Positions 3,147-28,813 are shown, counted from the first letter of the stretch. The stretch: DNA of 28,813 bases from Bacteroidia bacterium (GCA_031428235.1 JANPOX010000602.1:1-28813); one strand, 5' to 3'. Notes: generated by a model not told the origin, from the sequence alone. Numbers and translations: made by a program.

Positions 3147-3148
3147 TT

Positions 3149-3625: not shown

Positions 3626-3641
3626 TGTAAATTTTTATTTT

Positions 3642-5303: not shown

Positions 5304-5404
5304 GGAATTCTATAATATAAGGGTAATATAAAGTTAACATTAAATTTATACAAAAAAGACAGAATCCTCAACTTTCATGAAGGAATAGTGCTAAAAAAAT
5401 GAAA

Positions 5405-12851: not shown

Positions 12852-13448
12852 TTAATTAGCTGTAGTTGAACGTTTAATTTCAGGTTGAATCAATTCAGGT
12901 AAAACTCCGCTGTTTAGGTTTTTTACTAAATCTTCGCACACGGGCAAGGTCTGATTAAAGATCTCTAAATGTTTCCGAATGGTTTCGGTATTCACATTTA
13001 ATTCTTCAATGATCTTTTCCGATTCTCTTTTTTCTTCATTAATAAACTCAATGGCTTCCTCTTCATCAATACTTCCTGTTTTTAAGTCATGCGACAAAGT
13101 TTGTAATTGTTCAACTGATAATTCTGCTTCAATTAACCAGCTGGAACGTAAGGCCAGGTAATCATTCATTCCTTTGCCAACGGATTGAAATGATTGTAAA
13201 TTTTCAGCGACTGTTTTTGAAACGGTATCTTTTAAATGAGAATTGATAAAAAGAGAATAGGTGTATTGTTTTGAATATGCCTTCACACAAGCAGAACTAT
13301 CCACGGTTTTAAAATGGGTGACTGATTGTTGTAATACTACCTTAAGACTATCGAGCTCTTTGGTGTATTTTTCATAACCGTGCGTATTCTTGCAGGAAGA
13401 TAATCCAACTCCACAAATCACTGATATCAAACAAAGTAAAAGTCTCAC
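12852..13448 (-). CDS. Hypothetical helical lipoprotein
   Basis: Lipobox LSS-C; predicted coiled-coil/helical body; 1-nt gap to the TPR gene. Confidence 0.7.
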   Translation of the reverse strand: MRLLLCLISVICGVGLSSCKNTHGYEKYTKELDSLKVVLQQSVTHFKTVDSSACVKAYSKQYTYSLFINSHLKDTVSKTVAENLQSFQSVGKGMNDYLALRSSWLIEAELSVEQLQTLSHDLKTGSIDEEEAIEFINEEKRESEKIIEELNVNTETIRKHLEIFNQTLPVCEDLVKNLNSGVLPELIQPEIKRSTTAN

Positions 13449-14750: not shown

Positions 14751-14751
14751 T

Positions 14752-15720
14752 TTATCGTTTGACGATCTTTTTAAGATTTAAAAATAAAAAAATGACTCCT
14801 ACTGCAGATCCCATAACATATAACATTCCTAAAAGAAAAGTGCCTTCACTTATATTATCAATTTCGGATAAAAAATAGAATATAAAGTATGTCAATCCGA
14901 TGTATCCATATAAAACGGAAAGCAACAGGAACAGGTAAGATTTATGTGCAAGTGCATACCTGATAAAATAAACGCAGATGCCGGCTAATATCAATAAAAT
15001 GATTAATTTGAGTTCCTGATCAAATAATGCAGCAAGGGTAGCAATACTTAAAAGATTAAGAGCAAAATTATTATATGTAAAGCCGAAGTGTTTTTTAATT
15101 CCTTTTTTATGGGAATACCAGTCCCACACACATAGTGCTATTCCTAAAGCCAGAGCAGTAAAAATAACGGAGAGATCAGAGAAATCATTATTGTCTATGA
15201 GTTGCCTTGGAGAAACACTTAATCCAAAAGTTCCGGCCAATCCCGTAATACCAAGTGATAAAATTCCTTTATGATCGAAGCGATAAGCAAGGTAAAATGC
15301 CAGTAGGGTGGGAATAAAAACAAGAATGCCGTAGTGCTCGCCAAAAGGATTGTATTGAAATTGAAAATATCCAACAAACAAGGCAAATAGCAGAAAGCCC
15401 AACAAAACAACATAATCAAAGAAAGGCGAAGTGTGTGTGATTTTTCCGTTTTGATAGGGCAATGTATGTTTGGCAGCATAATAAAAACAACCTGCAAAGC
15501 TTGCGGCAATGGCGGCTAATATAACCTGATGACCGATGGTGTCAATATTCTGATAAACTAAAATACCAATACCGGATGATAATAATAAAATCCCCAGGTA
15601 AAGGATGGTTCTCAGTTCCCAGTGAATGGAAAATAATTGAGATGCTTCAGCAGACCTGATTCTTTCGAATTGATCTTTGTCAAGGTGCCCATCTTTAAAT
15701 ATCTGATTTAACTCTGCCAT
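14752..15720 (-). CDS. DUF2157 domain multi-pass membrane protein
   Basis: FSIHWELRTILYLGILLLSSGIGILVYQNID motif, about nine TM segments; 1-nt gap to the downstream gene. Confidence 0.8.
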   Translation of the reverse strand: MAELNQIFKDGHLDKDQFERIRSAEASQLFSIHWELRTILYLGILLLSSGIGILVYQNIDTIGHQVILAAIAASFAGCFYYAAKHTLPYQNGKITHTSPFFDYVVLLGFLLFALFVGYFQFQYNPFGEHYGILVFIPTLLAFYLAYRFDHKGILSLGITGLAGTFGLSVSPRQLIDNNDFSDLSVIFTALALGIALCVWDWYSHKKGIKKHFGFTYNNFALNLLSIATLAALFDQELKLIILLILAGICVYFIRYALAHKSYLFLLLSVLYGYIGLTYFIFYFLSEIDNISEGTFLLGMLYVMGSAVGVIFLFLNLKKIVKR

Positions 15721-15847: not shown

Positions 15848-17092
15848 ATGGTTTTTACCCTATTAAAAGAAAGTATTGTATTTGCCTGGGGCGCCTTGAT
15901 TGCCAATAAGCTCCGCACCTTCCTTAGTTTATTAGGAATTACCATTGGCATCTTTGCTATCATTACTGTGTTTACCATTGTAGATAGTTTAGAACGCAAC
16001 ATCCGTGGCAGTGTTCAAAGCCTTGGAGATAACGTGGTGTTTGTGATGAAGTGGCCATGGACATTTGGCCCTGATTATCCCTGGTGGAAATACATGAACC
16101 GCCCAGTTCCTGAATACAGCGAACTGGCAGAAGTTGAACGCAAAGCAAAAAGTATTGAAGCCGTAGGGTTCAGAATTGGTGCCCGTAAAATATTGAAACA
16201 TAATAATAATACAATTGAAAACGGTTTGGTTTCGGGGTGGTCATACGGTTATGGAAAAGTAAAAGCGTTTGATATTGTGGAGGGGCGTTACTTTAGGGAA
16301 GATGAAGCAGAAGGCGGATACAATGTGGTTTTGTTAGGATACACCCTGGCCGATGGTTTATTTCCAAACAATGAATTCCCAATTGGAAAAACCATTAAAG
16401 TAGCAGGGAGAAACTGCAAAGTTATTGGCCTCTTTAAAAAAGAAGGAGAAAGTATGCTGGGAAATAGTATGGATAACCAGGCAGTGGTACCCTACAATTT
16501 TGCACGTTTATTTATGGATGTGAAATCTGAAAATAGTGATCCTTTTATTGCTGCCAAAGCAAAACCGGGCGTTACCAATGATCAGTTAAAAGATGAGCTC
16601 ATCGGGATCATGCGATCCATCCGGGGATTAAAACCATTGGCGGATGATGATTTTGCGCTGAATGAAACTAATTTGTTAAGTAAAAACTTCGATGGACTGT
16701 TTGATATTGTGGGCATTGCAGGTGCCATCATCGGGGGCTTTTCTATTTTAGTAGGTGGTTTTGGCATTGCCAACATTATGTTCGTGTCGGCGCGGGAACG
16801 TACTAACCTAATCGGAATTCAAAAATCTCTCGGGGCAAAAAATTATTTTATACTCGCACAGTTCTTATTCGAAGCTGTGTTTTTATCGTTGATCGGAGGC
16901 ATCATAGGACTATTACTCATTTATGCCCTCACCTTTGCTGCCGACGGGGTGATTGATATGGAAATCACTTTAACCCGTTCCAATATTATTTTAGGTCTAA
17001 CCATTTCGGTATTGATTGGCATCATCAGTGGTTTCATCCCCGCTTATGGCGCCTCTCAGTTGGATCCGGTAGAAGCAATAAGAACCAATTAA
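15848..17092 (+). CDS. ABC transporter permease, MacB/FtsX family
   Basis: NKLRTFLSLLGITIG, periplasmic domain, VGGFGIANIMFVSARERTNLIGIQKSLGA, PAYGASQLDPVEAIR. Confidence 0.95.
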   Translation: MVFTLLKESIVFAWGALIANKLRTFLSLLGITIGIFAIITVFTIVDSLERNIRGSVQSLGDNVVFVMKWPWTFGPDYPWWKYMNRPVPEYSELAEVERKAKSIEAVGFRIGARKILKHNNNTIENGLVSGWSYGYGKVKAFDIVEGRYFREDEAEGGYNVVLLGYTLADGLFPNNEFPIGKTIKVAGRNCKVIGLFKKEGESMLGNSMDNQAVVPYNFARLFMDVKSENSDPFIAAKAKPGVTNDQLKDELIGIMRSIRGLKPLADDDFALNETNLLSKNFDGLFDIVGIAGAIIGGFSILVGGFGIANIMFVSARERTNLIGIQKSLGAKNYFILAQFLFEAVFLSLIGGIIGLLLIYALTFAADGVIDMEITLTRSNIILGLTISVLIGIISGFIPAYGASQLDPVEAIRTN

Positions 17093-17538: not shown

Positions 17539-19030
17539 TTAATTCAAAGCAACTTTCTTCACTACTCTTTCTTCTGCTGATATTATTTCTATAAAATATA
17601 TTCCTTTAGCCTGAGTACTTAAATCTATTTCAGAGCTTAACTCAGTGCATTTATATTTGTTTAATATGCAGTTGCCCAACACATCATACACACAAATAGT
17701 GGTTGTAGAAGATTTATTTTTAAAATTGATTATGAAAATTCCTGATGTTGGATTTGGATAAACATCAGGATTAATTTTTTCATTTTTTAATTCATCAATT
17801 GTTGTAGTATTACTCGCATCCAAGATTGCAAGGAAGTAATTAATGCCTGGCATTCCAATAAGTGTGTCATCAAGCACAATTTTATTATCGAACATTCCAG
17901 AAATGAAACAGGTATTATTAGAAAGAGCTGCGATTCCTTGCCCTGCTCTTATGAGAAAAAGATGAATCTTGGACTAACCAAATTAAATTCCCTGAGGTGC
18001 TTATCTTACCGGTTTTAAAAAAATATTCGCGCGGAGGATTACCACTAAAAGTCCATTTAAGATGTGTTCCTGTAAAATAAATATTGTCAGTTGAGTCAAT
18101 GTCCATTCCATTTATATATCCTCTATCTTCGACAAAAAAATTTTGAAGTAAGAGGCCATCGTTTGAAATTTTTTTGATGGCTCCATAATCCAAGTAATGC
18201 GAACTTTGCGTTTCAATTATAAAAATGTCGCCAACAGAGTTAATTCGTAAATTATGGATGGATTCATATATTCCACCTCCTATATATTTTTCCCATAGCA
18301 AATTTAGGGAAGGATCAAATTTAAGTACATAACGGGAATAAGGCCCATTTGTTATTGTTGACGTATCAATTTTAACAGTGCCACTTATTGTTGCTAGTAA
18401 TATTAAATTTCCAAGTTCATCCTGTTTGATCTCTTGTCCTACTGAGATAGAGTACAGGTCTAGTGGCATTCTATCTACGAATTTCATTTGCTGTATATTT
18501 CCATTCATATCAAACTTTGAAATGAACATGTCTAGACCAATGGTTTTCGGAAAAACAGTCTGACCGATGAAAGTGGTATCATGTACAGCGCCTGTTACAT
18601 AAATGTTATTATTATGAACACAAACATCCCCGGCAATATCATTGGAAATGCTTCCGATTTGTTTTAGCCAGATGGCGTTACCTGTTGGGTTTAGTTTAAG
18701 CATGAAAACGTCCAGATCTCCTTTACTGAATAATGAGATGGAATCTACAACCAAAGTGGTGCTGAATGTTCCTACGATATAAATATTGTCGACAGTATCA
18801 AAATTTACATTAATTATAGTGCCACCAAAAGATTTCACCCAAATGAATTTTCCATTTGAATTATATTTCTTTAATTCAGTTTCACCATGGCCGACAGTAA
18901 ACACTTCATCTCCATGATTCTTAACAACTCGTGTATCGTTAGTTGAAGAAACAATGCTGTCCCATACCCATTGTTGCGCAAAGACAGATAGATCCACAAT
19001 ACAAAAAAGAGTCATTATGATTTTTTTCAC
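17539..19030 (-). pseudogene. Frameshifted T9SS cargo gene (SBBP-like beta-propeller repeats + type A CTD); track ORFs 17918..19156 and 17539..17895 are its two halves
   Basis: Probable GTG start at 19030 gives MKKIIMTLFCIVDLSVFAQ (signal peptide). Repeats of type G.I..D..(D/G)NIY.TG. The second frame is open from 17973, supplies the next repeat (AGQGIAALSNNTCFISG) and ends in VYPNP…VYDVLG…KGIYF CTD. Confidence 0.75.
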
Positions 19031-19134
19031 CGCTATAATTTTATCCAAAATTACTTGGCAATTGCGCCTAAACTTTTTCTTTTCGCTAAGACGGCACTTT
19101 TGGTAGTTACTTAATGGTGCTATATTCATTTCAC

Positions 19135-19165
19135 TTTGCAAAATTCCCGTAAACATTTATCTTTG
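19135..19165 (+). promoter_or_regulatory. Bacteroidota sigma70-type promoter of the 19184 gene
   Basis: TTTG (19135-19138), 19-bp spacer, TATCTTTG (19158-19165), ATG at 19184. Confidence 0.8.
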
Positions 19166-19183: not shown

Positions 19184-19804
19184 ATGGAGCAGAACCTGAA
19201 ACCCGAAGAACGTGAACTGGTAAAACTGGTGCAATATTTTAAAAAACGCGCACAGGTATTGATTAGTGAAGATAAGATGGATGATGCTTATTCTCAGATG
19301 TTGGAAACCTGCGATAAATTAAGTGAGCAACTTTTTATCCACGCCAAAAACAGAGATACAATTTTAGGAGAACGCGAACAGTTGGATGGGATGATCAAGG
19401 ACAATGCCAAATGCCCCAAATGTAATAGTAATGAAATGCTCAAAGTCATTGGTTTTGATACAACTGCCGAAGGCTGGAAAAGCAATAAATATAAATGCCG
19501 ACGTTGCAACATTGCTTTTGTTTGGAATACACCCAATAATCCATGGGATATGATTCCTTACGTTGAAAAATTTATTAAAGACACCGAAGAAAAAATAGCA
19601 GGTCTGGATGCTTCTGATCAAAATCTTCAACAAACCATCCAAGGCCTTGATGCAATGAAGGCAAACCTTGCTAAATTAAAACCCGTTGCAGAGGCTTCAG
19701 ATCTAGATATGCAGGACTTAGCAGAACGCGAAGTACAAATGGCTGATATGGTGCACAAGTTTAAAAAACACCTGATGATCGAAAAGATTAAGATGGAAGA
19801 ATAA
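19184..19804 (+). CDS. Hypothetical protein: zinc ribbon (CPKC…CRRC) flanked by coiled coils
   Basis: Two CxxC pairs; helical heptad-rich flanks; own consensus promoter. Confidence 0.8.
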   Translation: MEQNLKPEERELVKLVQYFKKRAQVLISEDKMDDAYSQMLETCDKLSEQLFIHAKNRDTILGEREQLDGMIKDNAKCPKCNSNEMLKVIGFDTTAEGWKSNKYKCRRCNIAFVWNTPNNPWDMIPYVEKFIKDTEEKIAGLDASDQNLQQTIQGLDAMKANLAKLKPVAEASDLDMQDLAEREVQMADMVHKFKKHLMIEKIKMEE

Positions 19805-20083: not shown

Positions 20084-22294
20084 ATGGTTGCAGAAGAAGT
20101 TGAAACCCATAATTTAATAGATCCGTTAAAAGCTTTTTTTGGCTTTGGAGGATTTAAGGGAACCCAAGAAGCTATTATCAATAATATACTAAACAAACAA
20201 GATACTTTTGTAATCATGCCAACCGGTGGAGGAAAGTCGTTGTGCTACCAACTACCGGCCATTATGAGCGAAGGAACAGCCATTATTGTTTCGCCCCTAA
20301 TTGCTTTAATGAAAAACCAGGTGGATGCCATTCGCGGTTTCAGTAACGAAACAGGCATTGCCCACTTTTTAAATTCCTCTTTAAATAAATCGGAAATTGC
20401 CACTGTTAAGAAAGACGTGCTTTCCGGAAAAACAAAATTATTATACGTTGCCCCTGAAACTTTAAATAAGGAAGATAACATTGAATTTTTCTCTGAATTT
20501 AAAATTTCCTTCTTTGCTATCGACGAAGCGCATTGTATTTCAGAATGGGGACATGATTTCCGTCCTGAATACCGTAGATTACGTCCAATCATCGACAAAT
20601 TAGGATCTGTGCCCGTAATGGCTTTAACAGCAACAGCTACGCCTAAAGTTCAACAGGATATTCAAAAGAATTTAGGCATGCTGGAAGCCAGTTTGTTTAA
20701 ATCGTCTTTTAACCGCGATAATTTATATTATGAAGTTCGCGCCAAGCAAAATGTGATCAAAGAGATCATTAAATATGCAAGGCAAAATGCGGGTAAATCA
20801 GGGATTATCTACTGTCTGAGTCGTAAAAAAGTGGAAGAAGTAGCGCAGGCTCTGATTGTTAACGGCGTAAAAGCTGCCCCATATCATGCAGGTCTTGATG
20901 CTAAGGAACGCGCTAAGACCCAGGATGGGTTCTTAATGGAAGATATTGATGTGATTGTTGCGACCATTGCTTTTGGGATGGGAATTGATAAACCGGATGT
21001 GCGTTTTGTGATCCATCACGATATTCCTAAATCATTAGAAGGCTACTACCAGGAAACAGGACGTGCCGGACGTGACGGAGGAGAAGGGAATTGCCTGACT
21101 TTTTACAGCTATGATGATATCATGAAACTGGAGAAGTTTATGAAGGATAAACCGGTAAATGAGCAGGAAATAGGAAAGCAAATGTTGTCTGAAACGGCTT
21201 CGTTTGCAGAAACTTCTTCGTGCCGTCGTAAATTCATTCTTCATTATTTTGGAGAAGAATTTGATGATGCCAAATGTAATGAGATGTGCGACAACTGCCG
21301 TCATCCAAAACAAAAATTTGAAGCACAGGATGATTTAATACTGGCTATCAAAGCTGTCAAAGAAAGCAAAGAGAAGCACAAAGTGAAGGATATCATTAAT
21401 TTGCTGATTGGAAACTTAACGGCTACCGGAAAATCATACAAACACAACGAATTAAAAACATGGGGCGAAGGAGTAGAATCTGATAAAGACGATAAATTCT
21501 GGAATGCCGTGATGCGCCAGGCTCTTGTAAATGGGTTCTTCTCAAAGGATATTGAAAATTACGGTTTGGTAAAAATCACCGATAAAGGAAAAGAATTTTT
21601 AAAGAGTCCGTTTAGCATCAAGTTCACACGCGATAACGATTTCAGCAATGCAGAAAGTGATAACGATGATGATATAGTTGGAGGAAAAGGTTCGCACAGT
21701 ACTGATGAGGTTTTATATGCAATGCTAAAAGATCTGACTAAAAGGGTAGCCAAACAAAATAATTTACCTCCGTATATTATTTTCCAGGAACCATCTTTAG
21801 AGGAGATGTCCATCAACTATCCGATCACCATGGAAGAAATGGCCAAAATTACGGGTGTAGGTGCCGGTAAAGCGGCTAAATACGGCAAAGCATTTTTAGA
21901 AGTAATTAAAAAACACGTAGAAGAAAATGACATTGAGCGTCCGAGCGACATGGTCATTAAATCGGTGGTAAATAAATCAGGGTTAAAAGTATTTATCATT
22001 CAAAACATTGACCGTAAGGTTAGTCTGGAGGATATGGCTAAAAATAAAAACCTGAAGATGAACGATCTGTTAACAGAAATTGAAACGATCGTAACTTCGG
22101 GAACAAAAGTAAATATCAACTATTACATCGATCAGGTGGTTGATGAAGACAAGAAAGATGATATTTATGAATGCCTCAGAGAAGCTGAAACAGATGACAT
22201 CACAGCTATTTTAAAAGAATTGGGCGAAGATGAATACAGCGAAGAAGAAGTAAGATTGTTGCGAATTAAGTTCATAAGTGAATTTGCAAATTAG
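20084..22294 (+). CDS. recQ: ATP-dependent DNA helicase RecQ (helicase core, Zn/RQC, HRDC, C-terminal extension)
   Basis: MPTGGGKSLCYQ, YVAPE, IDEAHCISEWGHDFRPEY, TATAT, ATIAFGMGIDKPDVR, YYQETGRAGRDG, CRR…CDNC. Confidence 0.98.
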   Translation: MVAEEVETHNLIDPLKAFFGFGGFKGTQEAIINNILNKQDTFVIMPTGGGKSLCYQLPAIMSEGTAIIVSPLIALMKNQVDAIRGFSNETGIAHFLNSSLNKSEIATVKKDVLSGKTKLLYVAPETLNKEDNIEFFSEFKISFFAIDEAHCISEWGHDFRPEYRRLRPIIDKLGSVPVMALTATATPKVQQDIQKNLGMLEASLFKSSFNRDNLYYEVRAKQNVIKEIIKYARQNAGKSGIIYCLSRKKVEEVAQALIVNGVKAAPYHAGLDAKERAKTQDGFLMEDIDVIVATIAFGMGIDKPDVRFVIHHDIPKSLEGYYQETGRAGRDGGEGNCLTFYSYDDIMKLEKFMKDKPVNEQEIGKQMLSETASFAETSSCRRKFILHYFGEEFDDAKCNEMCDNCRHPKQKFEAQDDLILAIKAVKESKEKHKVKDIINLLIGNLTATGKSYKHNELKTWGEGVESDKDDKFWNAVMRQALVNGFFSKDIENYGLVKITDKGKEFLKSPFSIKFTRDNDFSNAESDNDDDIVGGKGSHSTDEVLYAMLKDLTKRVAKQNNLPPYIIFQEPSLEEMSINYPITMEEMAKITGVGAGKAAKYGKAFLEVIKKHVEENDIERPSDMVIKSVVNKSGLKVFIIQNIDRKVSLEDMAKNKNLKMNDLLTEIETIVTSGTKVNINYYIDQVVDEDKKDDIYECLREAETDDITAILKELGEDEYSEEEVRLLRIKFISEFAN

Positions 22295-22311: not shown

Positions 22312-22351
22312 GCAAAGAAGCCATCCGCTAAGTAGCGGATGGCTTCTTTGC
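22312..22351. terminator. Long hairpin terminator after recQ
   Basis: Perfect inverted repeat GCAAAGAAGCCATCCGCT-AAGT-AGCGGATGGCTTCTTTGC; GC core followed by TTCTTT. Confidence 0.8.
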
Positions 22352-22498: not shown

Positions 22499-24586
22499 AT
22501 GACTTTTTTCTGTAAAAAATGTAACATTATTGCCTTTTTAGTTGGCTTGTTTATCTGTCATGAGAATATTATGATGGGACAAAACAAGGATGAAATAGTA
22601 TCCTCGTATATTAAAAGTTTAACAGAAACCTGGAATGAGTTTAATACACAAACTTTTTCCTCTTACATCATTGATACAACGGCCACATTAAAATCAGAGC
22701 CATTTAAAATAGATCAAAAGTCTTTGGTTGATAACCGCACTAAAATGCAGCTGAGGTTAAATCAATTGCAGCAAACCATCAATAAAAAAGATGTGGGTTT
22801 GCATGCAACGGTTAATTACCAGGAAAATTTTAATAACCCGATTGTTGACCCCGAAGAATTCGTTGTTTTTAAACGGCGTGCTATCGCCGGATTCGATTGG
22901 GATATTTTAAGCAATGGATTTTATGAAAGCAGGCTGAGAAACAAAATACTGAAACTGAATTACGAAACATTGGAAAAAAAGCAACAGACAGAAAAACTGA
23001 ACGCTTTTCAGAATGCTCAGACAGCGCAGATCATTGCTTACTTTAATATTAAAAAAATTGAAATTTTAAATGTCCGAAAAAATCTGAATAACAAACAAGT
23101 TCCGGTGATCGAAAAATTGTGGGCCATTAAGCACATCACAAAAGATAATTATTTAAAAGCGCTTCAAAACACCACAGATATAAACGCCCAGTATAATATT
23201 TATCAGAATTATAATCAGGCCAGGGCAAATGGAAAGACTTTTGATTTTGAATTACCGATCCTTGATATTAATATTCAACAGCTTTTACAAAAAGCAAACA
23301 TTTCCACGTTTGATTCAACGGCTAATGATGCCACACGTCTTGCTAAATATCAATCCTCTTATTTAAAAGATGTGAGTTTAAAGGCATACACCCGTTATAA
23401 TTATTATGATGTAAGTAATGCGAACCAACCAAATAGATCTTTTGTTTCTATAGGGATGAATTTATCTATGCCGTTGGCGTTTAATCAAAAAGATAAAAAG
23501 GCCTTTTACCTGCTTCAGCAACAACTGACCATTGCAAAAGAAGAAATTGATTCTGTTGATTTCGAAGCATCGATCTTAAATAAATATTATGAGTATCAAT
23601 ATAAATTGAAGCAATTTAAAAACCTATATCATAAGCGATTGGTATTTGAAGAACTACTAAGAACTGAGCGTGCAAAGCAACAATTTGATGACATGGAGTT
23701 TAATCCCAATACGGCTTTGTTTATATTGGATGATTATTGGAGCAACGCGATTGAATTACTGGATTTAAAACAGGATCTTTATAAAATTCTCCTTGACTTG
23801 AAAACAAGAATGCCGGCGGTTCAGATATCTGAGTATACCAGCTCGTTGAATTTATCCAATCTGAATATAGCTTCCAGTAATCCCCCATTTAAAGCTGTTT
23901 ATATTTGGAGCGATGCCTTTAAGAATAACTCCCAAACCGTTATTAATGAGTATTGCAAGGTCAATGAATTTAATCCTTTGCTGATCTCATATAATCCCGG
24001 TAAAGCATATGTGTTGCAAATTTCTGATTTTATTTCGAAGAATCACGGTACACCGGTACACTTAATGATCGGAAGTAACAAGTTGTTGCAAACAGGTATT
24101 AGTGGATTTTTAGATACCTTAAAAATGAACATGAACCTGTCATACATTAAAGGCATTCATTTGGATATTGAGCCGCATACTTTCCCTGACTTTAAAGAAA
24201 ATAAAGAGCAGTATTTCAAAAAATATATTCAGCTGTTAAAACAGGCAAAACAATTTACAGATAAAAACCATCTGGAACTATCTGTTTCCATTCCTTTAAA
24301 TTATCCCGAAGAGGTTTTAACAGAATTAAATACACTCTGCAATTATGTTTATTTAATGGCTTACGAAAATGTTGACCCTGATTTTATTTCCAGGAAAACC
24401 TTAGAGGAAAAAGCAATACTGAAAAGTAAATGCGTTTTAGCATTAAGAACAAAAGATTTTGAGAACAGGAACAGCATGGATGAAGCTTTAAAAAAATCCG
24501 GTTTTGATAAATCCGCATACCATGATCTGGATGACCTAATCAAATTTGACAACCAAAGTATTAACGTGAAGGAAGGCAACAAGTAA
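22499..24586 (+). CDS. TolC/OEP-like outer-membrane channel fused to a C-terminal GH18-like (beta/alpha)8 domain
   Basis: Signal-like N-terminus; two OEP-type repeats (strand pairs VGLHATVNYQENF/RRAIAGFDWDIL and DVSLKAYTRYNYY/FVSIGMNLSMPL, each followed by long amphipathic helices); aa ~462-695 with alternating strands AVYIW, VHLMIG, GIHLDIEP, LSVSIP, VYLMAYE. Confidence 0.65.
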   Translation: MTFFCKKCNIIAFLVGLFICHENIMMGQNKDEIVSSYIKSLTETWNEFNTQTFSSYIIDTTATLKSEPFKIDQKSLVDNRTKMQLRLNQLQQTINKKDVGLHATVNYQENFNNPIVDPEEFVVFKRRAIAGFDWDILSNGFYESRLRNKILKLNYETLEKKQQTEKLNAFQNAQTAQIIAYFNIKKIEILNVRKNLNNKQVPVIEKLWAIKHITKDNYLKALQNTTDINAQYNIYQNYNQARANGKTFDFELPILDINIQQLLQKANISTFDSTANDATRLAKYQSSYLKDVSLKAYTRYNYYDVSNANQPNRSFVSIGMNLSMPLAFNQKDKKAFYLLQQQLTIAKEEIDSVDFEASILNKYYEYQYKLKQFKNLYHKRLVFEELLRTERAKQQFDDMEFNPNTALFILDDYWSNAIELLDLKQDLYKILLDLKTRMPAVQISEYTSSLNLSNLNIASSNPPFKAVYIWSDAFKNNSQTVINEYCKVNEFNPLLISYNPGKAYVLQISDFISKNHGTPVHLMIGSNKLLQTGISGFLDTLKMNMNLSYIKGIHLDIEPHTFPDFKENKEQYFKKYIQLLKQAKQFTDKNHLELSVSIPLNYPEEVLTELNTLCNYVYLMAYENVDPDFISRKTLEEKAILKSKCVLALRTKDFENRNSMDEALKKSGFDKSAYHDLDDLIKFDNQSINVKEGNK

Positions 24587-24587
24587 G

Positions 24588-25703
24588 ATGAAAAGCATAA
24601 ACTTCCAGAGAAACAAATCATTGATCCGCGTTGTTAATGAGCAAAAAGTAAAAAAGAAAAAACAACGTAACTGGGACAGAATTCTTTATATAGGCTTACT
24701 CTTGACTTTCATCCTTTTCATGTTTTACTATTTCTTTTTTAAGTTTGTGTATGTGCACGCCTTTGGCCATGTTATAATCGAAAACACGCACATTCGCTTA
24801 ACGGATGATGCCCGCGTGATAGAATTTTATGTGAATGAAGGCGATAGTATCCAAAAAAATGATACTTTATTTTCATATGCTCTTGATCGGGATGATGACA
24901 TCAACGGACAATCATCTCTGAGTATTGGTTCCATTACTGCTGCTGGAAAAGACGAATGGTGGGTGAAAGAATTATTTGCTCTGAAAAAGAAAATCGTTTT
25001 AAACAACATTGATGTTTCTGAAAACGGTAATCTTATCGCTAATTATAAAACTGAGATCAAGCGATTAAGTAATGAAGTGATTCTTGATGTGATGCCAAAA
25101 AGCAGACTGGAGTTTGTACAAAATGAAATCTTCCGATTAAATACTGAAAATCAAAAACTTCAAAAGGAAAATAGTGAGTTAAATGGATTGATCAAAACAT
25201 TGGGGCCAACCACCAATAAAAATAAGTACAGTGCTTCCAACATTCGGTTAAAAAACGGCTCTAGAGGTTTAACTGAACTGAGTAAGCTGGCATTCAGTGA
25301 GGAGTTATTGTCAGAACCCAAATATTTTAAATCCCCGATCAGTGGCGTTTCTACCCGCATCTTTATTCATAATTACGAAACGGCTCTAAAGAGCGAAGAA
25401 ATTATGTCCATTCACCAGGCCCATCCTGCTTTTATAAAAGCCTATTTTGAACAGGAGGATTTGCGGTATTTTAAGGTAGGCGATGAATTTGAAATAAAAT
25501 TTCCTGATGGAACAACCAGTATCGGGATCCTGAAACGGTTTTATATTGCTACTTATACGTTGCCTGAAGAGTTCCAAAAAAAATACGAGCCAACCACACG
25601 AAGCATTGCCGCGGATATTTACCCGGCAGATTCACTTGAGATAAAGAAATGGCATGCGTTTTACAAAATGAGTGTGGATATATCAAAATTAAAATTTAAC
25701 TAG
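24588..25703 (+). CDS. HlyD-family membrane-fusion (periplasmic adaptor) protein
   Basis: Single N-terminal TM; lipoyl-like half VIEFYVNEGDSIQKNDTLF; coiled coil; second half KSPISGV; beta-barrel IKAYFEQEDLRYFKVGD. Confidence 0.8.
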   Translation: MKSINFQRNKSLIRVVNEQKVKKKKQRNWDRILYIGLLLTFILFMFYYFFFKFVYVHAFGHVIIENTHIRLTDDARVIEFYVNEGDSIQKNDTLFSYALDRDDDINGQSSLSIGSITAAGKDEWWVKELFALKKKIVLNNIDVSENGNLIANYKTEIKRLSNEVILDVMPKSRLEFVQNEIFRLNTENQKLQKENSELNGLIKTLGPTTNKNKYSASNIRLKNGSRGLTELSKLAFSEELLSEPKYFKSPISGVSTRIFIHNYETALKSEEIMSIHQAHPAFIKAYFEQEDLRYFKVGDEFEIKFPDGTTSIGILKRFYIATYTLPEEFQKKYEPTTRSIAADIYPADSLEIKKWHAFYKMSVDISKLKFN

Positions 25704-25706
25704 GCT

Positions 25707-27149
25707 ATGGATAAAACGTTAGCGAATAATAAAGTTGAATTTCATGATAATATTTTAACATGCTTTGGTAAAACATTCTTTTATTTTGAATCCTTTAGTT
25801 CATTAAAGATTGATGATCTTGAAAAATACGACGCGATCATCATCGATGCCAGAGACGTAGAATTCACACGCATCATTATCAAAAAATTCCGCAGTCATTC
25901 AAATATGGAATTTTATCTGAAACCACTTTTTTTAATTAATAATAAAGTCACAGATGATCCATATATAAAAGAATTGGCGGATGGCATCATCATGTCTTTT
26001 GATCAGATACCTGAAACAATCAATGATATAAATCAGATTAACATGAAGATTACGCGACTTGAAAGTTCGCCAACTTCATCTTTTGAGATTCAGGTATTTA
26101 AAAAAGCGCTGAACTTTATGTTTACCCGTGAAATCAATACGTTAAAACCTATTACAGATATTAACTCTACTATAGGCTATTGTTATCCTGTAATTTCCGT
26201 GAATTTTGAAGCCTTTGAAGAAGCAAAAGTTATTGAAATTTTAGAATGGGCCGAAAAAGAACATTTGATATGGCCTGATTTCCAGGACAGGGTTTATTTG
26301 TGCAGTAATTGCAAAGGGGGCCATCTGTCTTTTAGGGAAATATGCCCTAATTGTGATTCGGCAAATATGCGGTCAGAAGATCTTGTTCATCATTTTCCTT
26401 GTGGATACATTGGAGCAATTAGTGATTTTAAAAACAACATTGATACTGTTTTAACTTGCCCTAAATGTTCCAAAAATTTACGACACATTGGTGTGGATTA
26501 TGATAAGCCTTCTATCATTAACCATTGTCATAATTGCAATGATGTTTTTCAGGATTATTTAGTAAAAGCAAAATGCATACAATGTAAAACTGATACCGAT
26601 GTGCAGTTCCTGATTTCGAAGGATATCAATCTGTATAAACTCACCAAAAAAGGAAGGAACTCTGCGGTGGGTGGAATTTACACGTCAGATTATGAATTGG
26701 ATCATGAAATTGCAGGTACATTGGATTTTAAAACGTTCTCAACCATGATGCATTATGAACAGGAAAGGACAAAGGCGAACGTGACACTCAGTTCAAACCT
26801 GGTAGTTTTTTACTTCGAGAATATTTTTGATTTATATAAGATAGTTAGTAAGTCTAAAGAAAAATCGTTGTTGGCAGAATTTGTAACGATCATTCGTGAT
26901 AACATCACCCCGGCCGATTTTATTTGCATCAATAATCCTTCCATCATCAGTATCTGTGTGAATGATGTAGCTTTGGAGGAAGCTAAGATCATGGTATTGA
27001 AAATTACGGATAAGATCGAGGAATTAGTGAGGGATAACTTCGAAAAATTTGAATTATCAGTTGTTTCGCAGGTTGCCTTATTGAGCAAAAGTCAATCTTT
27101 TGATAAGCAAATCCAATCTATTATTAAAGAGTTGGTTGAAAAAACATGA
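25707..27149 (+). CDS. TackOD1-like multi-zinc protein with degenerate receiver-like N-terminus and degenerate GGDEF-like C-terminus
   Basis: aa 199-293 carry CSNC, CPNC, HFPC, CPKC, CHNC, CIQC plus LRHIGVDYDKP; aa ~337-480 follow the GGDEF secondary-structure pattern without the signature. Confidence 0.7.
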   Translation: MDKTLANNKVEFHDNILTCFGKTFFYFESFSSLKIDDLEKYDAIIIDARDVEFTRIIIKKFRSHSNMEFYLKPLFLINNKVTDDPYIKELADGIIMSFDQIPETINDINQINMKITRLESSPTSSFEIQVFKKALNFMFTREINTLKPITDINSTIGYCYPVISVNFEAFEEAKVIEILEWAEKEHLIWPDFQDRVYLCSNCKGGHLSFREICPNCDSANMRSEDLVHHFPCGYIGAISDFKNNIDTVLTCPKCSKNLRHIGVDYDKPSIINHCHNCNDVFQDYLVKAKCIQCKTDTDVQFLISKDINLYKLTKKGRNSAVGGIYTSDYELDHEIAGTLDFKTFSTMMHYEQERTKANVTLSSNLVVFYFENIFDLYKIVSKSKEKSLLAEFVTIIRDNITPADFICINNPSIISICVNDVALEEAKIMVLKITDKIEELVRDNFEKFELSVVSQVALLSKSQSFDKQIQSIIKELVEKT

Positions 27150-28456
27150 TAGAAGCCGTTGACGGATTTTTTAGTTATATCTCAGCTGCCGGTCCCTCCA
27201 AGTTATTAAGAATATTCTGGTTTTTTGTTTTTTTTGAGTTCGCCCGTTTCTTTATTTTTGAATTAGCCGTTCTAATCATCTGGAAATTGCGTGAACCGCA
27301 ACGCAAAGAACGTTATAGTAACGCCAGAAGACGATTGTTTATTGAACGCCCTTTAGTTTCTGTAATTGTTCCAGGAAAAAATGAAGGGTTGCACATTTTT
27401 AAATTGGCCAATTCCTTAAAAGAACAAAGTTATACCAATTTTGAGTTTATAGTAATTGATGATGGTTCTGATGACGATACAGAGCGGATCTGTAAGAGTC
27501 TTCAGAAAAACGGGTTTATTGATTTATTTTTAAGAAATGATGTTAGGGGCGGAAAAGCATCAGCAGCTAATTTAGGTTATCGGTTTTCCAAAGGAAAAAT
27601 TATTGTCCATTTGGATGCAGATTGTAGTTATGATAATGATGCCATTGAAAAAATCATTATTCCTTTTTATCTGGATGATGCCATTGGTGCAGTTGGTGGA
27701 AATATTTTGGTCAGAAATTATAAAGATAGTTTATGTGCCACTTTGCAGGCGATAGAGTATTCTGATACCATTTCAGTTGGACGAATCACTTCCAGTTATT
27801 TGGGTATTTACAGGTTGGTGTCGGGAGCTTTTGGTGCATTTAAACGCGAAGCGCTTGATCGTGTAGGTGGCTGGGATATCGGACCTGGGTTAGATGGTGA
27901 TATAACGGTAAAATTACGAAAGCTAGGATATTTAATTGTATTTGAATCGGAAGCTGTTTGTCAGACAAGTGTGCCGGACACTTTCAGGAAATTAGTTAAG
28001 CAGCGTTTACGATGGGATAAATCCATTATTCGTTTCAGAGTCAGAAAACACCGCGATGTGTTTTATCCAAATGCTACCTTTCGCTTTTCAAATTTTGTAT
28101 CCAGTGCAGAAAATATTACCTATAATTTGTTGTTAAATATAAAATGGTGGATCTACCTGGTAGACATGGTTGTTAATTACACTTCTTTGCTGGCTTTTGT
28201 TTTTCCATTTAATATTTTGCTGTATACCGTTAATAATTTTTTGAAGTTTTTGGTATTTTCTTTATTCAGAAAGAGAAAAAATTCCTCGATTATTTATTTT
28301 ATTCCTTACTTACCACTCATGGTATTGTATTTTGGATTTTATTTAAGGTTAGTGCGTTCTGTAGCTTATGTACAGGAGTTCTTTTTTAAGCGTTCTTATA
28401 AAGATGCATGGAACCCGGCAAAGTCTTCCAATCATGCAAAAAAACTGGGAATTTAA
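27146..28456 (+). CDS. Processive membrane GT2 glycosyltransferase (PgaC/IcaA/NodC/HAS-like)
   Basis: DDG (105-107), GKA, DAD (157-159), SGAFGAF, D250, QRLRW (286-290); N-terminal and C-terminal TM segments. Confidence 0.92.
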   Translation: MIEAVDGFFSYISAAGPSKLLRIFWFFVFFEFARFFIFELAVLIIWKLREPQRKERYSNARRRLFIERPLVSVIVPGKNEGLHIFKLANSLKEQSYTNFEFIVIDDGSDDDTERICKSLQKNGFIDLFLRNDVRGGKASAANLGYRFSKGKIIVHLDADCSYDNDAIEKIIIPFYLDDAIGAVGGNILVRNYKDSLCATLQAIEYSDTISVGRITSSYLGIYRLVSGAFGAFKREALDRVGGWDIGPGLDGDITVKLRKLGYLIVFESEAVCQTSVPDTFRKLVKQRLRWDKSIIRFRVRKHRDVFYPNATFRFSNFVSSAENITYNLLLNIKWWIYLVDMVVNYTSLLAFVFPFNILLYTVNNFLKFLVFSLFRKRKNSSIIYFIPYLPLMVLYFGFYLRLVRSVAYVQEFFFKRSYKDAWNPAKSSNHAKKLGI

Positions 28457-28596
28457 CTTTTTAAAATTGCAAGTAGTTTAAAAACGCTCAAAACGCTTAG
28501 GTGTTCAATTTAATTGATGTTATGAGCAGTTGGCAGTTAAAAACCCTCTTTTATCAAACATTGAAACTTTAGTTATTTTTAGGTAAATTCGCGTAT

Positions 28597-28813
28597 ATGA
28601 CATTTATATCAAAAAAAAATAAAGCTGATAGTAAACATAGTTCAGCAATTATCTGCTCAGTATTTAAAAATAGAACAGAGTATGCTTTAACTAAAGAGCA
28701 GTCAGATTATATCACTCATGATATTAAAATAAACGATAAAAAACTAATTTGCATCAACACTTTTTCACGTTTGGTATGTATTATCTTGATAGATGATAAA
28801 AAGAATCATTATA
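28597..28813 (+). CDS. 5' part of an ORF truncated by the window edge; possibly the N-terminus of an M17 leucyl aminopeptidase (weak)
   Basis: 72 open codons from ATG 28597 to the window end, preceded by a TAAATTCG -7-like element. The product guess is an impression only; no catalytic motif is in view. Confidence 0.5.
   Translation, partial: MTFISKKNKADSKHSSAIICSVFKNRTEYALTKEQSDYITHDIKINDKKLICINTFSRLVCIILIDDKKNHY

What the first reader, a model, noticed from the sequence alone, without database searches (positions are those of the whole stretch)
22499..28456. Candidate undescribed synthase-dependent polysaccharide system: TolC-hydrolase fusion + HlyD adaptor + TackOD1/GGDEF-like regulator + GT2
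Seen: four co-directional genes with gaps of 1 nt, 3 nt and an ATGA overlap, bounded upstream by a terminator and promoter-like motif. No Wzx/Wzy/Wzz/Wza, ABC transporter or sugar-nucleotide genes in the unit. Known: cellulose, PNAG, alginate and Pel use a processive synthase plus a TPR/beta-barrel porin; the Sinorhizobium BgsA/BgsB mixed-linkage glucan system instead pairs a GT2 with a HlyD-like protein. Inference: the GT2 polymerises and extrudes a glycan into an MFP-TolC conduit like a type I secretion channel, with a built-in hydrolase-like domain and a dedicated cytoplasmic regulator. I know of no characterised Bacteroidota system with this architecture.
Basis: partly seen in the sequence, partly recalled or inferred. 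Interest (0 to 1): 0.85.

Follow-up and report, generated by a model that had tools for sequence, protein, structure and literature searches.

The report
Four-gene sugar-polymer synthesis and export operon
A tightly packed, widely conserved but unstudied four-gene operon pairs a membrane sugar-polymer synthase with its own periplasmic adaptor, a TolC-like exit channel fused to a chitinase-like domain, and a zinc-ribbon switch protein. It is a distant, c-di-GMP-free relative of the Shewanella Mxd biofilm system.

Summary
Four co-directional genes (22499-28456) are separated by 1 nt, 3 nt and an ATGA overlap, and a strong hairpin lies after recQ.

- **Gene 1:** a TolC-family channel fused to a C-terminal TIM barrel. 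The barrel is closest in fold to GH18 chitinases and the PgaB GH153 domain, and keeps an invariant H-x-D-x-E motif.
- **Gene 2:** an EmrA/HlyD-type adaptor.
- **Gene 3:** receiver-like domain, TackOD1 and a dead GGDEF domain.
- **Gene 4:** a PgaC-like GT2 with QRLRW.

The gene order held in all 80 Bacteroidia species loci inspected. It recurs in Balneolaceae, Portibacter and the gammaproteobacterium Ca. Thiodiazotropha.

It is not without precedent, though. The BgsAB-TolC and cyanobacterial Xcs models exist, and the Shewanella mxdABCD operon is a distant homologue (about 30% identity) with a regulator of the same domain type, a synthase and an adaptor.

New points here are the in-operon channel-hydrolase fusion and the absence of any c-di-GMP machinery in the host genomes. 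Accessory genes in relatives point to a GlcNAc-based polymer.

This scan has already met the same module on other DNA several times. Verdict: new variant of a known kind.

The parts
22312..22351 (+). 18-bp perfect hairpin between recQ and the operon; probable recQ terminator and upstream boundary
   Evidence: strand folding gave -37.6 kcal/mol and z -8.2, with 0 of 200 shuffles folding as well. There is no T tail, so the consensus scan did not call it.
22499..24586 (+). Gene 1: outer-membrane factor (TolC family) fused to a C-terminal glycoside-hydrolase-like TIM barrel, 695 aa, with a hydrophobic N-terminal signal-like segment
   Evidence: Pfam OEP 26.9 bits against a cut-off of 22. AF2 model pLDDT 81. 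More than 229 full-length homologues, mostly unnamed or 'hypothetical protein', a few 'TolC family protein'. Hydrophobic segment at aa 1-26.
22580..23818 (+). TolC-like channel part of gene 1 (about aa 28-440): two beta-hairpins (aa 101-134 and 293-325) and long paired helices
   Evidence: Foldseek against the PDB: CmeC 4mt4 at E 2e-6, and TolC, OprM and CusC at probability 1.00.
23882..24568 (+). GH18/GH153-like (beta/alpha) barrel of gene 1 (aa 462-690); predicted periplasmic, because the TolC C-terminus ends at the equatorial belt
   Evidence: VIA-align: GH18 chitinases and chitinase-like proteins Z 17-18.4 (rmsd 3.0 A, about 220 aligned residues); PgaB C-terminal GH153 domain Z 17.5-17.6. 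AFDB clusters: GHL10, DUF4015, DUF4434 and DUF3142 barrels. No sequence-level hit to GH18 or PgaB. The periplasmic placement is inferred from known TolC topology.
24158..24172 (+). H554-L-D556-I-E558, the invariant H-x-D-x-E motif on the barrel (equivalent to the D-x-E end of the GH18 DxxDxDxE motif). A second GH18-like motif, M620-A-Y622-E623, lies at 24356-24367.
   Evidence: H554, D556 and E558 are invariant in 46 family members and in the 51-sequence domain alignment that includes Balneolaceae. They are also kept in Ca. Thiodiazotropha.
24588..25703 (+). Gene 2: membrane fusion protein (HlyD/EmrA type), 371 aa, with one N-terminal TM helix (aa 31-59)
   Evidence: A family profile hits EmrA (E 3e-7 and 2e-5), MacA and HlyD in the PDB. 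NCBIfam EmrA and HlyD hits are weak. The Thiodiazotropha orthologue hits Pfam HlyD_3 at 3e-9.
25707..27149 (+). Gene 3: soluble three-domain protein, 480 aa. Receiver-like domain (aa 1-115, nt 25707-26051), TackOD1 zinc-ribbon module (aa 131-312, nt 26097-26642), degenerate GGDEF domain (aa 340-480, nt 26724-27146).
   Evidence: Pfam TackOD1 at E 2e-51. AF2 model pLDDT 86.9. The C-terminal domain matches GGDEF structures at TM 0.66-0.80 and rmsd 2.5-3 A. NNPS stands in place of GG[DE]EF, and T-P-A-D in place of the RxxD I-site. No TM segment.
27146..28456 (+). Gene 4: membrane-embedded processive-type GT2 synthase, 436 aa. Motifs DDGSDD, DAD, G-L-D250 and Q286-RLRW (nt 28001-28015); TM segments at aa 20-46 and 341-400.
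   Evidence: Pfam Glycos_transf_2 at 2e-24 and Chitin_synth_2 at 1e-7. NCBIfam PgaC_IcaA at E 7e-49, 167 bits, below the cut-off of 422. 32% identity to E. coli PgaC over 271 aa, with the TED Asp aligned to D250.

Best explanation
The four genes encode a self-contained, synthase-dependent exopolysaccharide machine of the tripartite type. The inner-membrane GT2 (gene 4) polymerises a nucleotide sugar and threads the chain through its own membrane pore. The sugar is most likely UDP-GlcNAc, giving a HexNAc-based polymer. The single-pass adaptor (gene 2) bridges the periplasm to a trimeric TolC-like channel (gene 1), through which the chain leaves the cell. No ABC, RND or MFS pump is encoded, so the synthase takes the pump's place. 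The GH18/GH153-like barrel fused to the channel's C-terminus sits in the periplasm on the outside of the tunnel. There it binds, trims or clears the polymer, as PgaB, BcsZ, XcsC or PelA do in other systems. The soluble receiver-like/TackOD1/dead-GGDEF protein (gene 3) is translationally coupled to the synthase and acts as its dedicated cytoplasmic switch. In Shewanella the homologous MxdA binds c-di-GMP and phospho-CheY3. Here the I-site arginine is lost and the genome has no c-di-GMP enzymes, so the switch is probably driven by a receiver-type or protein-protein input instead.

Shown: gene structure, domain identities, folds, conserved motifs, conservation of the gene set, and homology to Mxd-type operons.

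Inferred: polymer export through the channel, polymer chemistry, periplasmic placement and activity of the barrel, and the regulator's mode of action.
For: (1) Domain identities are given.
(2) The unit encodes no pump.
(3) The order is strictly conserved. In the 80 Bacteroidia species loci returned, the genes present always run OMF-GH/MFP/TackOD1/GT2. The set is also found in Balneolaceae and Portibacter and in Ca. Thiodiazotropha, with the fusion and its motifs kept at 22% identity.
(4) In three of four regulator homologues checked at 25-31% identity, a GT2 gene follows directly. In the fourth contig the GT2 is in two pieces.
(5) Accessory genes in relatives all concern HexNAc chemistry or surface display. 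They are a TviB-like UDP-GlcNAc 6-dehydrogenase (468 bits), a CE4-like T9SS protein, an NAD-epimerase and a CotH/T9SS protein.
(6) Some Balneolaceae relatives carry a true receiver on the regulator (Pfam Response_reg E 4e-25). Others in that family have a histidine kinase, REC, Hpt and LytTR set directly upstream.
(7) There is homology to operons with the mxdABCD layout. The regulator scores E 5e-32 and 6e-29, the GT2 E 3e-47 and 9e-45 including the C-terminal TM region, and the MFP hhalign 97%. Mxd is needed for three-dimensional biofilm, and MxdA binds c-di-GMP and CheY3-P (PMC3691769, PMC7666153).
(8) Precedent for GT2-MFP-TolC: tolC is essential for the BgsAB glucan (PMC13438883), and the Xcs model exists (PMC12430437).
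(9) No GGDEF, EAL or PilZ gene was found in the window's genome. No GGDEF cyclase was found in five 99-100% complete carrier genomes.
Against: No experiment exists for this subfamily, and the polymer is unknown even for Mxd. The GT2 scores below the PgaC equivalog cut-off and is only about 30% identical to MxdB-type synthases. Its bit scores are 149-157 to Mxd-type GT2s against 117 to PgaC, so chemistry cannot be transferred from either. The barrel has no sequence-level match to GH18 or GH153, and the first two Asp of the GH18 motif are absent. A periplasmic domain outside a sealed tunnel has no obvious access to a chain travelling inside it. The trimeric state and the contacts among the channel, adaptor and synthase were not modelled. 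The window's genome is an 89% complete MAG, so the absence of c-di-GMP genes there is not proof, although the complete relatives agree. No RNA data were found.
Confidence: 0.7

Rival explanations
1. The regulator works as in Shewanella. Gene 3 is a c-di-GMP receptor that uses its dead GGDEF domain, and the system is switched on by c-di-GMP.
For: MxdA is reported as a c-di-GMP-binding effector (PMC7666153). The GGDEF fold is intact. Asp404 of the RxxD-equivalent site is kept in 46 of 47 family members, and 10 of 47 also keep the Arg. The Plesiomonas homologue has R-D-T-D at that site.
Against: The window's protein has T-P-A-D, with no Arg. No GGDEF, EAL or PilZ gene was found in the window's genome. 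No GGDEF cyclase was found in five 99-100% complete genomes that carry the operon; the only hit was the operon's own protein at 20.5 bits.
Confidence: 0.1
2. The product is a short chito-oligosaccharide or another small glycoconjugate (NodC-like chemistry), not a long polymer. It is pumped out as a signal or surface modifier through the adaptor-channel pair.
For: The GT2 also hits NodC (E 3e-18) and chitin synthase models. Its size and TM layout resemble NodC. A GH18-like domain would fit chitin-type linkages.
Against: PgaC/IcaA is by far the best curated match (E 7e-49 against 3e-18). There are no Nod-type modification or NodIJ genes. In Mxd-type relatives the phenotype is matrix and aggregation (PMC3691769). 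Accessory genes in relatives (uronic-acid dehydrogenase, deacetylase-like protein) are typical of polymers.
Confidence: 0.1
3. The C-terminal barrel of gene 1 is a non-catalytic carbohydrate-binding module, like chitinase-like lectins or the binding role of the PgaB C-terminal domain. It guides the chain into the channel and does not cut it.
For: The top structural match is BRP39, a non-enzymatic chitinase-like protein (Z 18.4), and the PgaB C-terminal domain scores Z 17.6. The first two Asp of DxxDxDxE are missing. There is no sequence match to active GH families.
Against: The acid/base Glu and the adjacent Asp are invariant across phyla, together with a His and an M-x-Y-E motif. That pattern is expected for a preserved active site. 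Inactive chitinase-like lectins typically lose the Glu (established GH18 knowledge).
Confidence: 0.3
4. Genes 1 and 2 are parts of an ordinary efflux or type I secretion system whose pump lies elsewhere. They are only co-located with an unrelated GT2 and its regulator.
For: Channel and adaptor proteins normally serve ABC, RND or MFS pumps. A MacB/FtsX permease gene lies 5 kb upstream.
Against: The linkage to the GT2 is maintained across about 70 species loci, two phyla and down to 22% identity, with 1-4 nt junctions. The MacB-like gene is not linked in the Balneolaceae, Portibacter or Thiodiazotropha loci. The channel carries a carbohydrate-type barrel.
Confidence: 0.05

Closest known systems
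Shewanella oneidensis MxdABCD biofilm operon (PMC3691769, PMC7666153)
   Same: It has the same three core parts in one operon: a TackOD1 plus degenerate-GGDEF cytoplasmic protein, a membrane GT2 and a HlyD-type adaptor. I tested homology on operons with the same layout in Shewanella khirikhana, Plesiomonas and Vibrio. The regulator is linked to a receiver protein in both: MxdA binds phospho-CheY3, and here a receiver-like domain is fused.
   Different: The gene order differs (A-B-C-D there; channel-adaptor-regulator-synthase here). Mxd has no channel gene and no hydrolase domain in the operon. No MxdD homologue is present here. The GT2s form two separate subfamilies: 130-175 bits between them, against 350-720 bits within each. 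MxdA binds c-di-GMP, whereas this host has no c-di-GMP genes and the I-site Arg is lost. I did not compare with the MR-1 sequences themselves.
BgsA/BgsB/TolC mixed-linkage glucan system of Sinorhizobium (PMC13438883) and the XcsA/XcsB/TolC (+XcsC endoglucanase) cellulose model of cyanobacteria (PMC12430437)
   Same: A GT2 synthase acts as the inner-membrane component, with a HlyD-like adaptor and a TolC-family channel. Xcs also has a dedicated glycoside hydrolase.
   Different: Those synthases are BcsA-like glucan synthases activated by c-di-GMP (PilZ or C-terminal site). Their TolC is a shared housekeeping channel encoded elsewhere, and the hydrolase is a separate protein. Here the channel is dedicated, encoded in the operon and fused to the hydrolase-like domain. 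The synthase is PgaC-like, and the regulator is a separate TackOD1 protein.
PgaABCD / IcaADBC PNAG systems
   Same: The GT2 is closest to PgaC/IcaA among curated families and is 32% identical to E. coli PgaC. The barrel on the channel resembles the PgaB GH153 domain in fold (Z 17.6). An outer-membrane exit protein paired with a periplasmic carbohydrate-active domain parallels PgaA plus PgaB.
   Different: There is no PgaD, no PgaA-type TPR plus 16-strand porin, no CE4 deacetylase in the operon, and no c-di-GMP. The GT2 score is far below the equivalog cut-off (167 against 422 bits).
PelD and BcsE: degenerate-GGDEF regulators of polysaccharide synthases
   Same: Both are cytoplasmic proteins with a catalytically dead GGDEF domain, dedicated to one polysaccharide machine. 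BcsE also has a degenerate receiver.
   Different: Those proteins sense c-di-GMP through the I-site. Neither contains a TackOD1 zinc module. PelD is membrane-anchored.
TackOD1 (PF18551) output domain of TACK-archaeal response regulators (Galperin et al. 2018, PMC5847659)
   Same: Same domain (E 2e-51), with all CxxC and HxxC ligands invariant. The REC-TackOD1 architecture recurs in Balneolaceae relatives.
   Different: The function was described there as obscure and linked to archaeal type IV pilus loci. Here the domain is joined to a dead GGDEF and always sits next to a GT2 synthase.

Membership tests
Tripartite GT2-MFP-TolC synthase-dependent secretion (Bgs/Xcs type) | Membrane-embedded processive GT2 with D, DxD, catalytic D and QxxRW motifs plus TM helices | tested here: met
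   DDGSDD, DAD, D250 and QRLRW are present, with TM segments at aa 20-46 and 341-400.
Tripartite GT2-MFP-TolC synthase-dependent secretion (Bgs/Xcs type) | HlyD-family adaptor encoded with the synthase | tested here: met
   The family profile hits EmrA, MacA and HlyD. The gene lies in the same operon.
Tripartite GT2-MFP-TolC synthase-dependent secretion (Bgs/Xcs type) | TolC-family channel required for polymer production | not testable with these tools
   A TolC-like fold and the in-operon location are shown. Genetic requirement needs a mutant.
Tripartite GT2-MFP-TolC synthase-dependent secretion (Bgs/Xcs type) | c-di-GMP activation through a site on the synthase (PilZ or C-terminal) | tested here: not met
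   The GT2 has no PilZ domain. No PilZ, GGDEF or EAL gene was found in the genome.
Mxd (Shewanella mxdABCD) | MxdA-type protein: TackOD1 plus degenerate GGDEF, encoded next to the synthase | tested here: met
   Gene 3 scores E 5e-32 against the Plesiomonas homologue and 6e-29 against the S. khirikhana homologue. The domain pair is confirmed by Pfam and by fold.
Mxd (Shewanella mxdABCD) | MxdB-type GT2 and MxdC-type adaptor | tested here: met
   The GT2 scores E 3e-47 and 9e-45 over about 380 aa. The adaptor gives hhalign 97.4%. The GT2 nevertheless falls in a separate subfamily.
Mxd (Shewanella mxdABCD) | MxdD small protein and the A-B-C-D gene order | tested here: not met
   No tblastn match of the 137-aa MxdD-like protein in the window. 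The order here is channel-adaptor-regulator-synthase.
Mxd (Shewanella mxdABCD) | c-di-GMP binding by the regulator | tested here: inconclusive
   The I-site Arg is replaced (T-P-A-D), and only 10 of 47 relatives keep it. The genome has no cyclases. Binding itself was not assayed.
Pga/Ica PNAG synthase system | PgaC/IcaA equivalog score | tested here: not met
   TIGR03937 gives 167 bits against a cut-off of 422.
Pga/Ica PNAG synthase system | PgaD or IcaD partner, PgaA porin, PgaB or IcaB CE4 deacetylase | tested here: not met
   None is present in the operon. Only a GH153-like fold is present.
Glycoside hydrolase family 18 | (beta/alpha)8 barrel fold | tested here: met
   Z 17-18.4, rmsd about 3 A, about 220 aligned residues to many GH18 structures.
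Glycoside hydrolase family 18 | DxxDxDxE catalytic motif and sequence-profile match | tested here: not met
   The motif reads K-G-I-H-L-D-I-E, so only D-x-E is kept. No Pfam GH18 hit in 46 family members. One Balneolaceae homologue reaches E 2e-5, below the cut-off.
TolC / outer membrane factor family | OEP repeats; two beta-hairpins plus long helical hairpins per protomer | tested here: met
   Pfam OEP is above its cut-off, and 32 of 46 relatives hit it. Strand and helix layout is, and Foldseek matches CmeC, TolC and OprM.
TolC / outer membrane factor family | Homotrimer forming a 12-strand barrel | not tested
GGDEF diguanylate cyclase | GG[DE]EF active-site loop and metal-binding Asp | tested here: not met
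   The fold is present, but the loop reads N-N-P-S and the Pfam GGDEF model does not hit this protein.
Response-regulator receiver (REC) | Phospho-acceptor Asp, N-terminal acidic pair, conserved Lys | tested here: inconclusive
   D47 (D in 31 and E in 11 of 47 members) and K72-P73 are present, but the acidic pair is not, and there is no Pfam hit for this protein. Four distant relatives have a true REC.

The most novel reading that the evidence does not exclude
This is a distinct, phylum-spanning class of synthase-dependent secretion with three features. The synthase docks directly into a dedicated adaptor-TolC tunnel. The channel's fused GH18/GH153-like domain is a catalytically active periplasmic trimmer of a HexNAc polymer. 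The TackOD1/dead-GGDEF protein is a c-di-GMP-independent allosteric activator of the synthase that responds to a receiver-type, zinc or redox input. That would give the orphan TackOD1 domain its first function and show how a c-di-GMP receptor was re-wired in lineages that lack the messenger.
Probability: 0.3. Interest if true: 0.8.

Novelty: new variant of a known kind. Interest (0 to 1): 0.6.

Why it matters
Whether a polysaccharide synthase can use a TolC tunnel in place of a pump is still an open question. The cyanobacterial review notes that the Xcs model lacks validation because its parts are not encoded together (PMC12430437). The rhizobial study could not exclude an indirect role for TolC (PMC13438883).

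Here the channel, adaptor and synthase sit in one translationally coupled operon with no pump, and the channel carries a carbohydrate-type domain. That is about as strong as genomic evidence for direct coupling can be. Culturable carriers such as Portibacter, Gracilimonas and Fodinibius make it testable.

The operon also places the orphan TackOD1 domain next to a synthase in two phyla. It links the long-studied but biochemically undefined Mxd biofilm system to a much larger family. It shows a version that must work without c-di-GMP.

The polymer, probably GlcNAc-based, may be a common matrix component of freshwater, sludge and sediment Bacteroidota.

Tried and rejected
- **Sequence-level assignment of the barrel.** Pfam on 46 members, a profile search against PDB sequences, and hhalign against E. 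coli PgaB gave nothing useful. The only hit was a marginal match to a putative GH97 with a similar LDVEP motif. Only fold comparison placed the domain.
- **Sigma-70 promoter scan.** It found fewer sites than shuffled sequence and is unsuited to Bacteroidota.
- **Expression evidence.** No RNA run holds the locus.
- **A fifth gene.** The open frame at 28597 is the start of a peptidase M17 gene, not the CotH gene that follows the GT2 in close relatives.
- **A pump for the channel and adaptor.** The MacB/FtsX gene at 15848-17092 is a separate unit and is not linked in other lineages.
- **Papers not held.** Thormann 2006 and Rakshe 2011 could not be read, so statements about Mxd rest on PMC3691769 and PMC7666153.
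- **No direct comparison with S. oneidensis MR-1 proteins.** No tool held that genome. I used S. khirikhana, Plesiomonas and Vibrio operons with the same layout instead.
- **Cross-phylum census.** 559 species genomes matched, but only the best 80, all Bacteroidia, were listed.

Full report
**1. The observation**

The ORF list gives four + strand genes: 22499-24586 (695 aa), 24588-25703 (371 aa), 25707-27149 (480 aa) and 27146-28456 (436 aa). Upstream lies recQ (20084-22294; TIGR01389 at 642 bits). A perfect 18-bp hairpin follows at 22312-22351 (-37.6 kcal/mol, z -8.2).

Downstream, the last 237 bases of the window match the peptidase M17 gene of a close relative, so the unit ends with the GT2. 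The window is a whole 28.8-kb contig of a MAG that is 89% complete, in 753 contigs. Sequencing-run look-ups place the organism in freshwater sediment and soil metagenomes, and no RNA data exist for it.

**2. Gene 1: channel fused to a hydrolase-like barrel**

- Pfam sees only a weak OEP match, 26.9 bits against a cut-off of 22.
- An AlphaFold2 model built on 46 homologues (pLDDT 81) shows the TolC protomer layout. It has two beta-hairpins (aa 101-134 and 293-325), each followed by long helices.
- Foldseek matches CmeC, TolC, OprM and CusC (E from 2e-6).
- Residues 462-690 form a separate alpha/beta barrel with pLDDT around 90.
- VIA-align ranks GH18 chitinases and chitinase-like proteins first (Z 17-18.4, rmsd 3.0 A, about 220 aligned residues). 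The PgaB C-terminal GH153 domain is effectively tied at Z 17.5-17.6.
- AlphaFold DB clusters add GHL10, DUF4015, DUF4434 and DUF3142 barrels, and several other TolC-plus-barrel fusions.
- Sequence methods do not see GH18 or PgaB.

Conservation in the barrel is telling. H554-x-D556-x-E558 is invariant in the 46-member family alignment and in the 51-sequence barrel alignment that includes Balneolaceae. In that family alignment M620 and E623 are also invariant and Y622 nearly so, forming M620-x-Y622-E623. These sit where GH18 enzymes have the D-x-E end of DxxDxDxE and the MxYD motif. The H-x-D-x-E and Y-L-M-A-Y-E motifs survive in a gammaproteobacterial orthologue at 22% identity.

In TolC proteins the C-terminus ends at the equatorial belt. 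The barrel is therefore predicted to hang in the periplasm on the outside of the tunnel. This placement is an inference from known TolC topology.

**3. Gene 2: adaptor**

The protein has one N-terminal TM helix at aa 31-59. A profile of 11 orthologues hits EmrA (E 3e-7 and 2e-5), MacA, HlyD and LipC in the PDB. The Thiodiazotropha orthologue hits Pfam HlyD_3. It is a membrane fusion protein of the EmrA/HlyD kind.

**4. Gene 3: cytoplasmic switch protein**

- Pfam finds TackOD1 at E 2e-51, covering aa 131-312.
- The AF2 model (pLDDT 86.9) has three domains: an alpha/beta receiver-like domain (aa 1-115), the cysteine-rich TackOD1 module, and a C-terminal domain.
- The C-terminal domain superposes on GGDEF domains at TM 0.66-0.80 and rmsd 2.5-3 A.
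- The catalytic loop reads N-N-P-S where GG[DE]EF should be.
- The RxxD I-site equivalent reads T-P-A-D. Across 47 relatives the Asp is kept in 46, but the Arg in only 10.
- The receiver-like domain keeps the phospho-acceptor position (D in 31 and E in 11 of 47) and a K-P pair. It lacks the acidic pair and has no Pfam match.
- Four distant relatives in Balneolaceae carry a true receiver instead (Response_reg E 4e-25). They also encode a separate small homologue of the window's N-terminal domain.
- The protein has no TM segment.

**5. Gene 4: synthase**

This is a GT2 with DDGSDD, DAD, a catalytic Asp (D250) and QRLRW. TM segments lie at both ends. The best curated match is PgaC/IcaA at E 7e-49, but at 167 bits it falls far below the equivalog cut-off of 422. 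It is 32% identical to E. coli PgaC over the catalytic domain, and the TED Asp aligns to G-L-D250.

**6. Conservation of the gene set**

- Gene 1 has more than 229 full-length homologues and gene 3 more than 354, mostly unnamed or 'hypothetical protein' and largely from Bacteroidia MAGs.
- A scan of one genome per species found 559 genomes with a gene-3 relative.
- In the 80 loci returned, the genes present were always in the order channel-barrel, adaptor, regulator, synthase. All four were present in about 70 loci, and the rest were cut by contig ends.
- The GT2 is the best-conserved gene (62-98% identity) and the channel the least (28-93%).
- In a sample of 401 Bacteroidota genomes, 15 carry the regulator. 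They include Portibacter marinus (Saprospiraceae) and many Balneolaceae: Rhodohalobacter, Fodinibius, Gracilimonas and Balneola.
- A search of 1.8 billion representative proteins found 278 clusters at E no higher than 1e-30.
- Four members at 25-31% identity were checked. In three a GT2 gene follows directly, and in the fourth contig the GT2 is in two pieces.
- One of these is Ca. Thiodiazotropha, a gammaproteobacterial clam symbiont. It has the full set of a 689-aa channel-barrel fusion, adaptor, regulator and GT2 with overlapping junctions.

**7. Accessory genes in relatives**

| Lineage or locus | Accessory genes |
|---|---|
| About a quarter of the Bacteroidia loci, including a relative whose regulator is 93% identical | A CotH/LTD/T9SS-tail protein directly after the GT2. 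The window lacks it at this site but has three CotH genes elsewhere. |
| One Balneolaceae form | A TviB-like UDP-GlcNAc 6-dehydrogenase (468 bits) and a DUF4114 protein inserted in the operon, with a histidine kinase, REC, Hpt and LytTR regulator upstream |
| A Flavobacteriaceae-like MAG | A T9SS protein with a weak CE4 deacetylase match |
| A high-GC contig | An NAD-epimerase |

All of these fit a HexNAc-based surface polymer under two-component control.

**8. No c-di-GMP**

The window's genome has no GGDEF, EAL or PilZ gene, though it is only 89% complete. Five carrier genomes that are 99-100% complete have no GGDEF cyclase. The only hit there was the operon's own protein, at 20.5 bits. The dead GGDEF domain therefore cannot act as a classical c-di-GMP sensor in these hosts.

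**9. Comparison with known systems**

- Plesiomonas, Vibrio parahaemolyticus and Shewanella khirikhana carry a TackOD1/GGDEF protein, a GT2 and a HlyD adaptor. In S. khirikhana a 137-aa protein follows. That is the published mxdABCD layout (PMC3691769).
- The window's regulator, GT2 and adaptor are homologous to them. Scores are E 5e-32 and 6e-29 for the regulator, 3e-47 and 9e-45 for the GT2, and hhalign 97% for the adaptor.
- A bit-score matrix shows two GT2 subfamilies. One holds the window, Thiodiazotropha, Balneolaceae, Portibacter and the high-GC contig, at 350-630 bits among themselves. The other holds the Shewanella, Plesiomonas and Vibrio Mxd-type synthases, at 480-720 bits. Scores between the two are only 130-175 bits, and scores to PgaC are 95-136 bits.
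- Mxd is needed for three-dimensional biofilm and aggregation. MxdA binds c-di-GMP and phospho-CheY3 (PMC3691769, PMC7666153). Its polymer and outer-membrane exit are unknown.

Separately, a GT2-HlyD-TolC route has been proposed for cyanobacterial cellulose (Xcs) and supported genetically for the rhizobial mixed-linkage glucan (PMC12430437, PMC13438883). No paper in the library mentions TackOD1 beyond the 2018 census, which called its function obscure.

**10. Interpretation**

The best reading is a self-contained tripartite exopolysaccharide synthase-exporter.

- The GT2 acts as the energising inner-membrane component.
- The adaptor and a dedicated TolC-like channel form the conduit.
- A periplasmic GH18/GH153-like domain trims, clears or guides the chain.
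- A translationally coupled cytoplasmic switch protein has lost c-di-GMP sensing in these lineages and probably responds to a receiver-type input.

I put 0.7 on the overall mechanism, about 0.5-0.6 on a GlcNAc-based polymer, and about 0.5 on the barrel being catalytic.

The main tension is that a domain outside a sealed tunnel cannot easily reach the chain inside it. It may act at the adaptor-channel junction, on mis-released chains, or before the tunnel closes.

**11. Novelty**

The system is a new variant of a known kind. Its core is homologous to Mxd, and its logic matches Bgs and Xcs. Three things are unreported: the in-operon channel-barrel fusion, the c-di-GMP-free setting, and the Bacteroidota distribution.

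This scan has already described the same module on other DNA: e1-4781238, e1-2053456, e1-878974, e1-4098887, e1-4196210, e1-4011630 and e1-5190927. This window is therefore a further, well-documented instance and not a first sighting.

Noticed in passing
window 28457-28813; L032:12769-15417: A relative whose regulator is 93% identical, and about a quarter of the 80 Bacteroidia loci, carry an 880-aa CotH/LTD/CHB_HEX_C/T9SS-tail gene directly after the GT2. The window lacks it and runs straight into a peptidase M17 gene. Three CotH genes lie elsewhere in the genome (C135, C484, C35).
   Followed up: partly
window 1750-6486: Another first-reader note describes a VTC + DUF4956 module here with 'no CotH kinase'. 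CotH sits beside the GT2 operon in relatives, so a functional link between CotH, this operon and the VTC module may be worth testing.
   Followed up: no
L025:61-3163 (Balneolaceae, G168): A GAF-PAS histidine kinase, a single REC, an Hpt protein and a REC-LytTR regulator lie directly upstream of the channel gene in one Balneolaceae form of the operon. That form also carries a TviB-like UDP-GlcNAc 6-dehydrogenase and a DUF4114/LVIVD protein between the adaptor and the regulator, and its channel lacks the barrel.
   Followed up: partly
L121 + L122 (Aeromonas caviae plasmid pKAM345_3, NZ_AP024951.1): A 29-kb mobilizable plasmid carries a TackOD1/GGDEF 'diguanylate cyclase', a GT2 that runs across the record origin (unannotated in PLSDB), a 694-aa 'TolC family protein' with a G-L-H-L-D-L-E motif, and a HlyD adaptor. 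The module can therefore travel on plasmids.
   Followed up: partly
L116 (JGI metagenome contig, 61.6% GC): A TackOD1 protein called as one 1147-aa product with a transposase (PF00872) N-terminus is followed by a subfamily-I GT2 and an NAD-epimerase. The lineage is unknown. The neighbouring fused E2-E1 2-oxoglutarate dehydrogenase hints at Actinomycetota, which would put the regulator-synthase pair in a monoderm without channel or adaptor.
   Followed up: no
L024:9947-10276, L028:10617-10946 (Balneolaceae): A free-standing 109-119-aa protein homologous to the window's receiver-like N-terminal domain sits between the adaptor and a true-REC/TackOD1 protein. The degenerate receiver-like module is thus a conserved part of the system, whether fused or free.
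   Followed up: partly
L024:5787-7019, L028:6553-7824 (Balneolaceae): A conserved 410-423-aa protein with no Pfam or NCBIfam match follows the GT2 in one Balneolaceae form of the operon.
   Followed up: no
window 20084-22294: The RecQ here carries a C-terminal RecQ-1-like HTH domain (PF21220, E 3e-25) after HRDC, making it 736 aa.
   Followed up: no
window 13560-15720: Two adjacent DUF2157 membrane-protein genes (396 and 322 aa) sit beside a 606-aa TPR protein and several genes with no family match (12852-13448, 17918-19156, 19184-19804).
   Followed up: no
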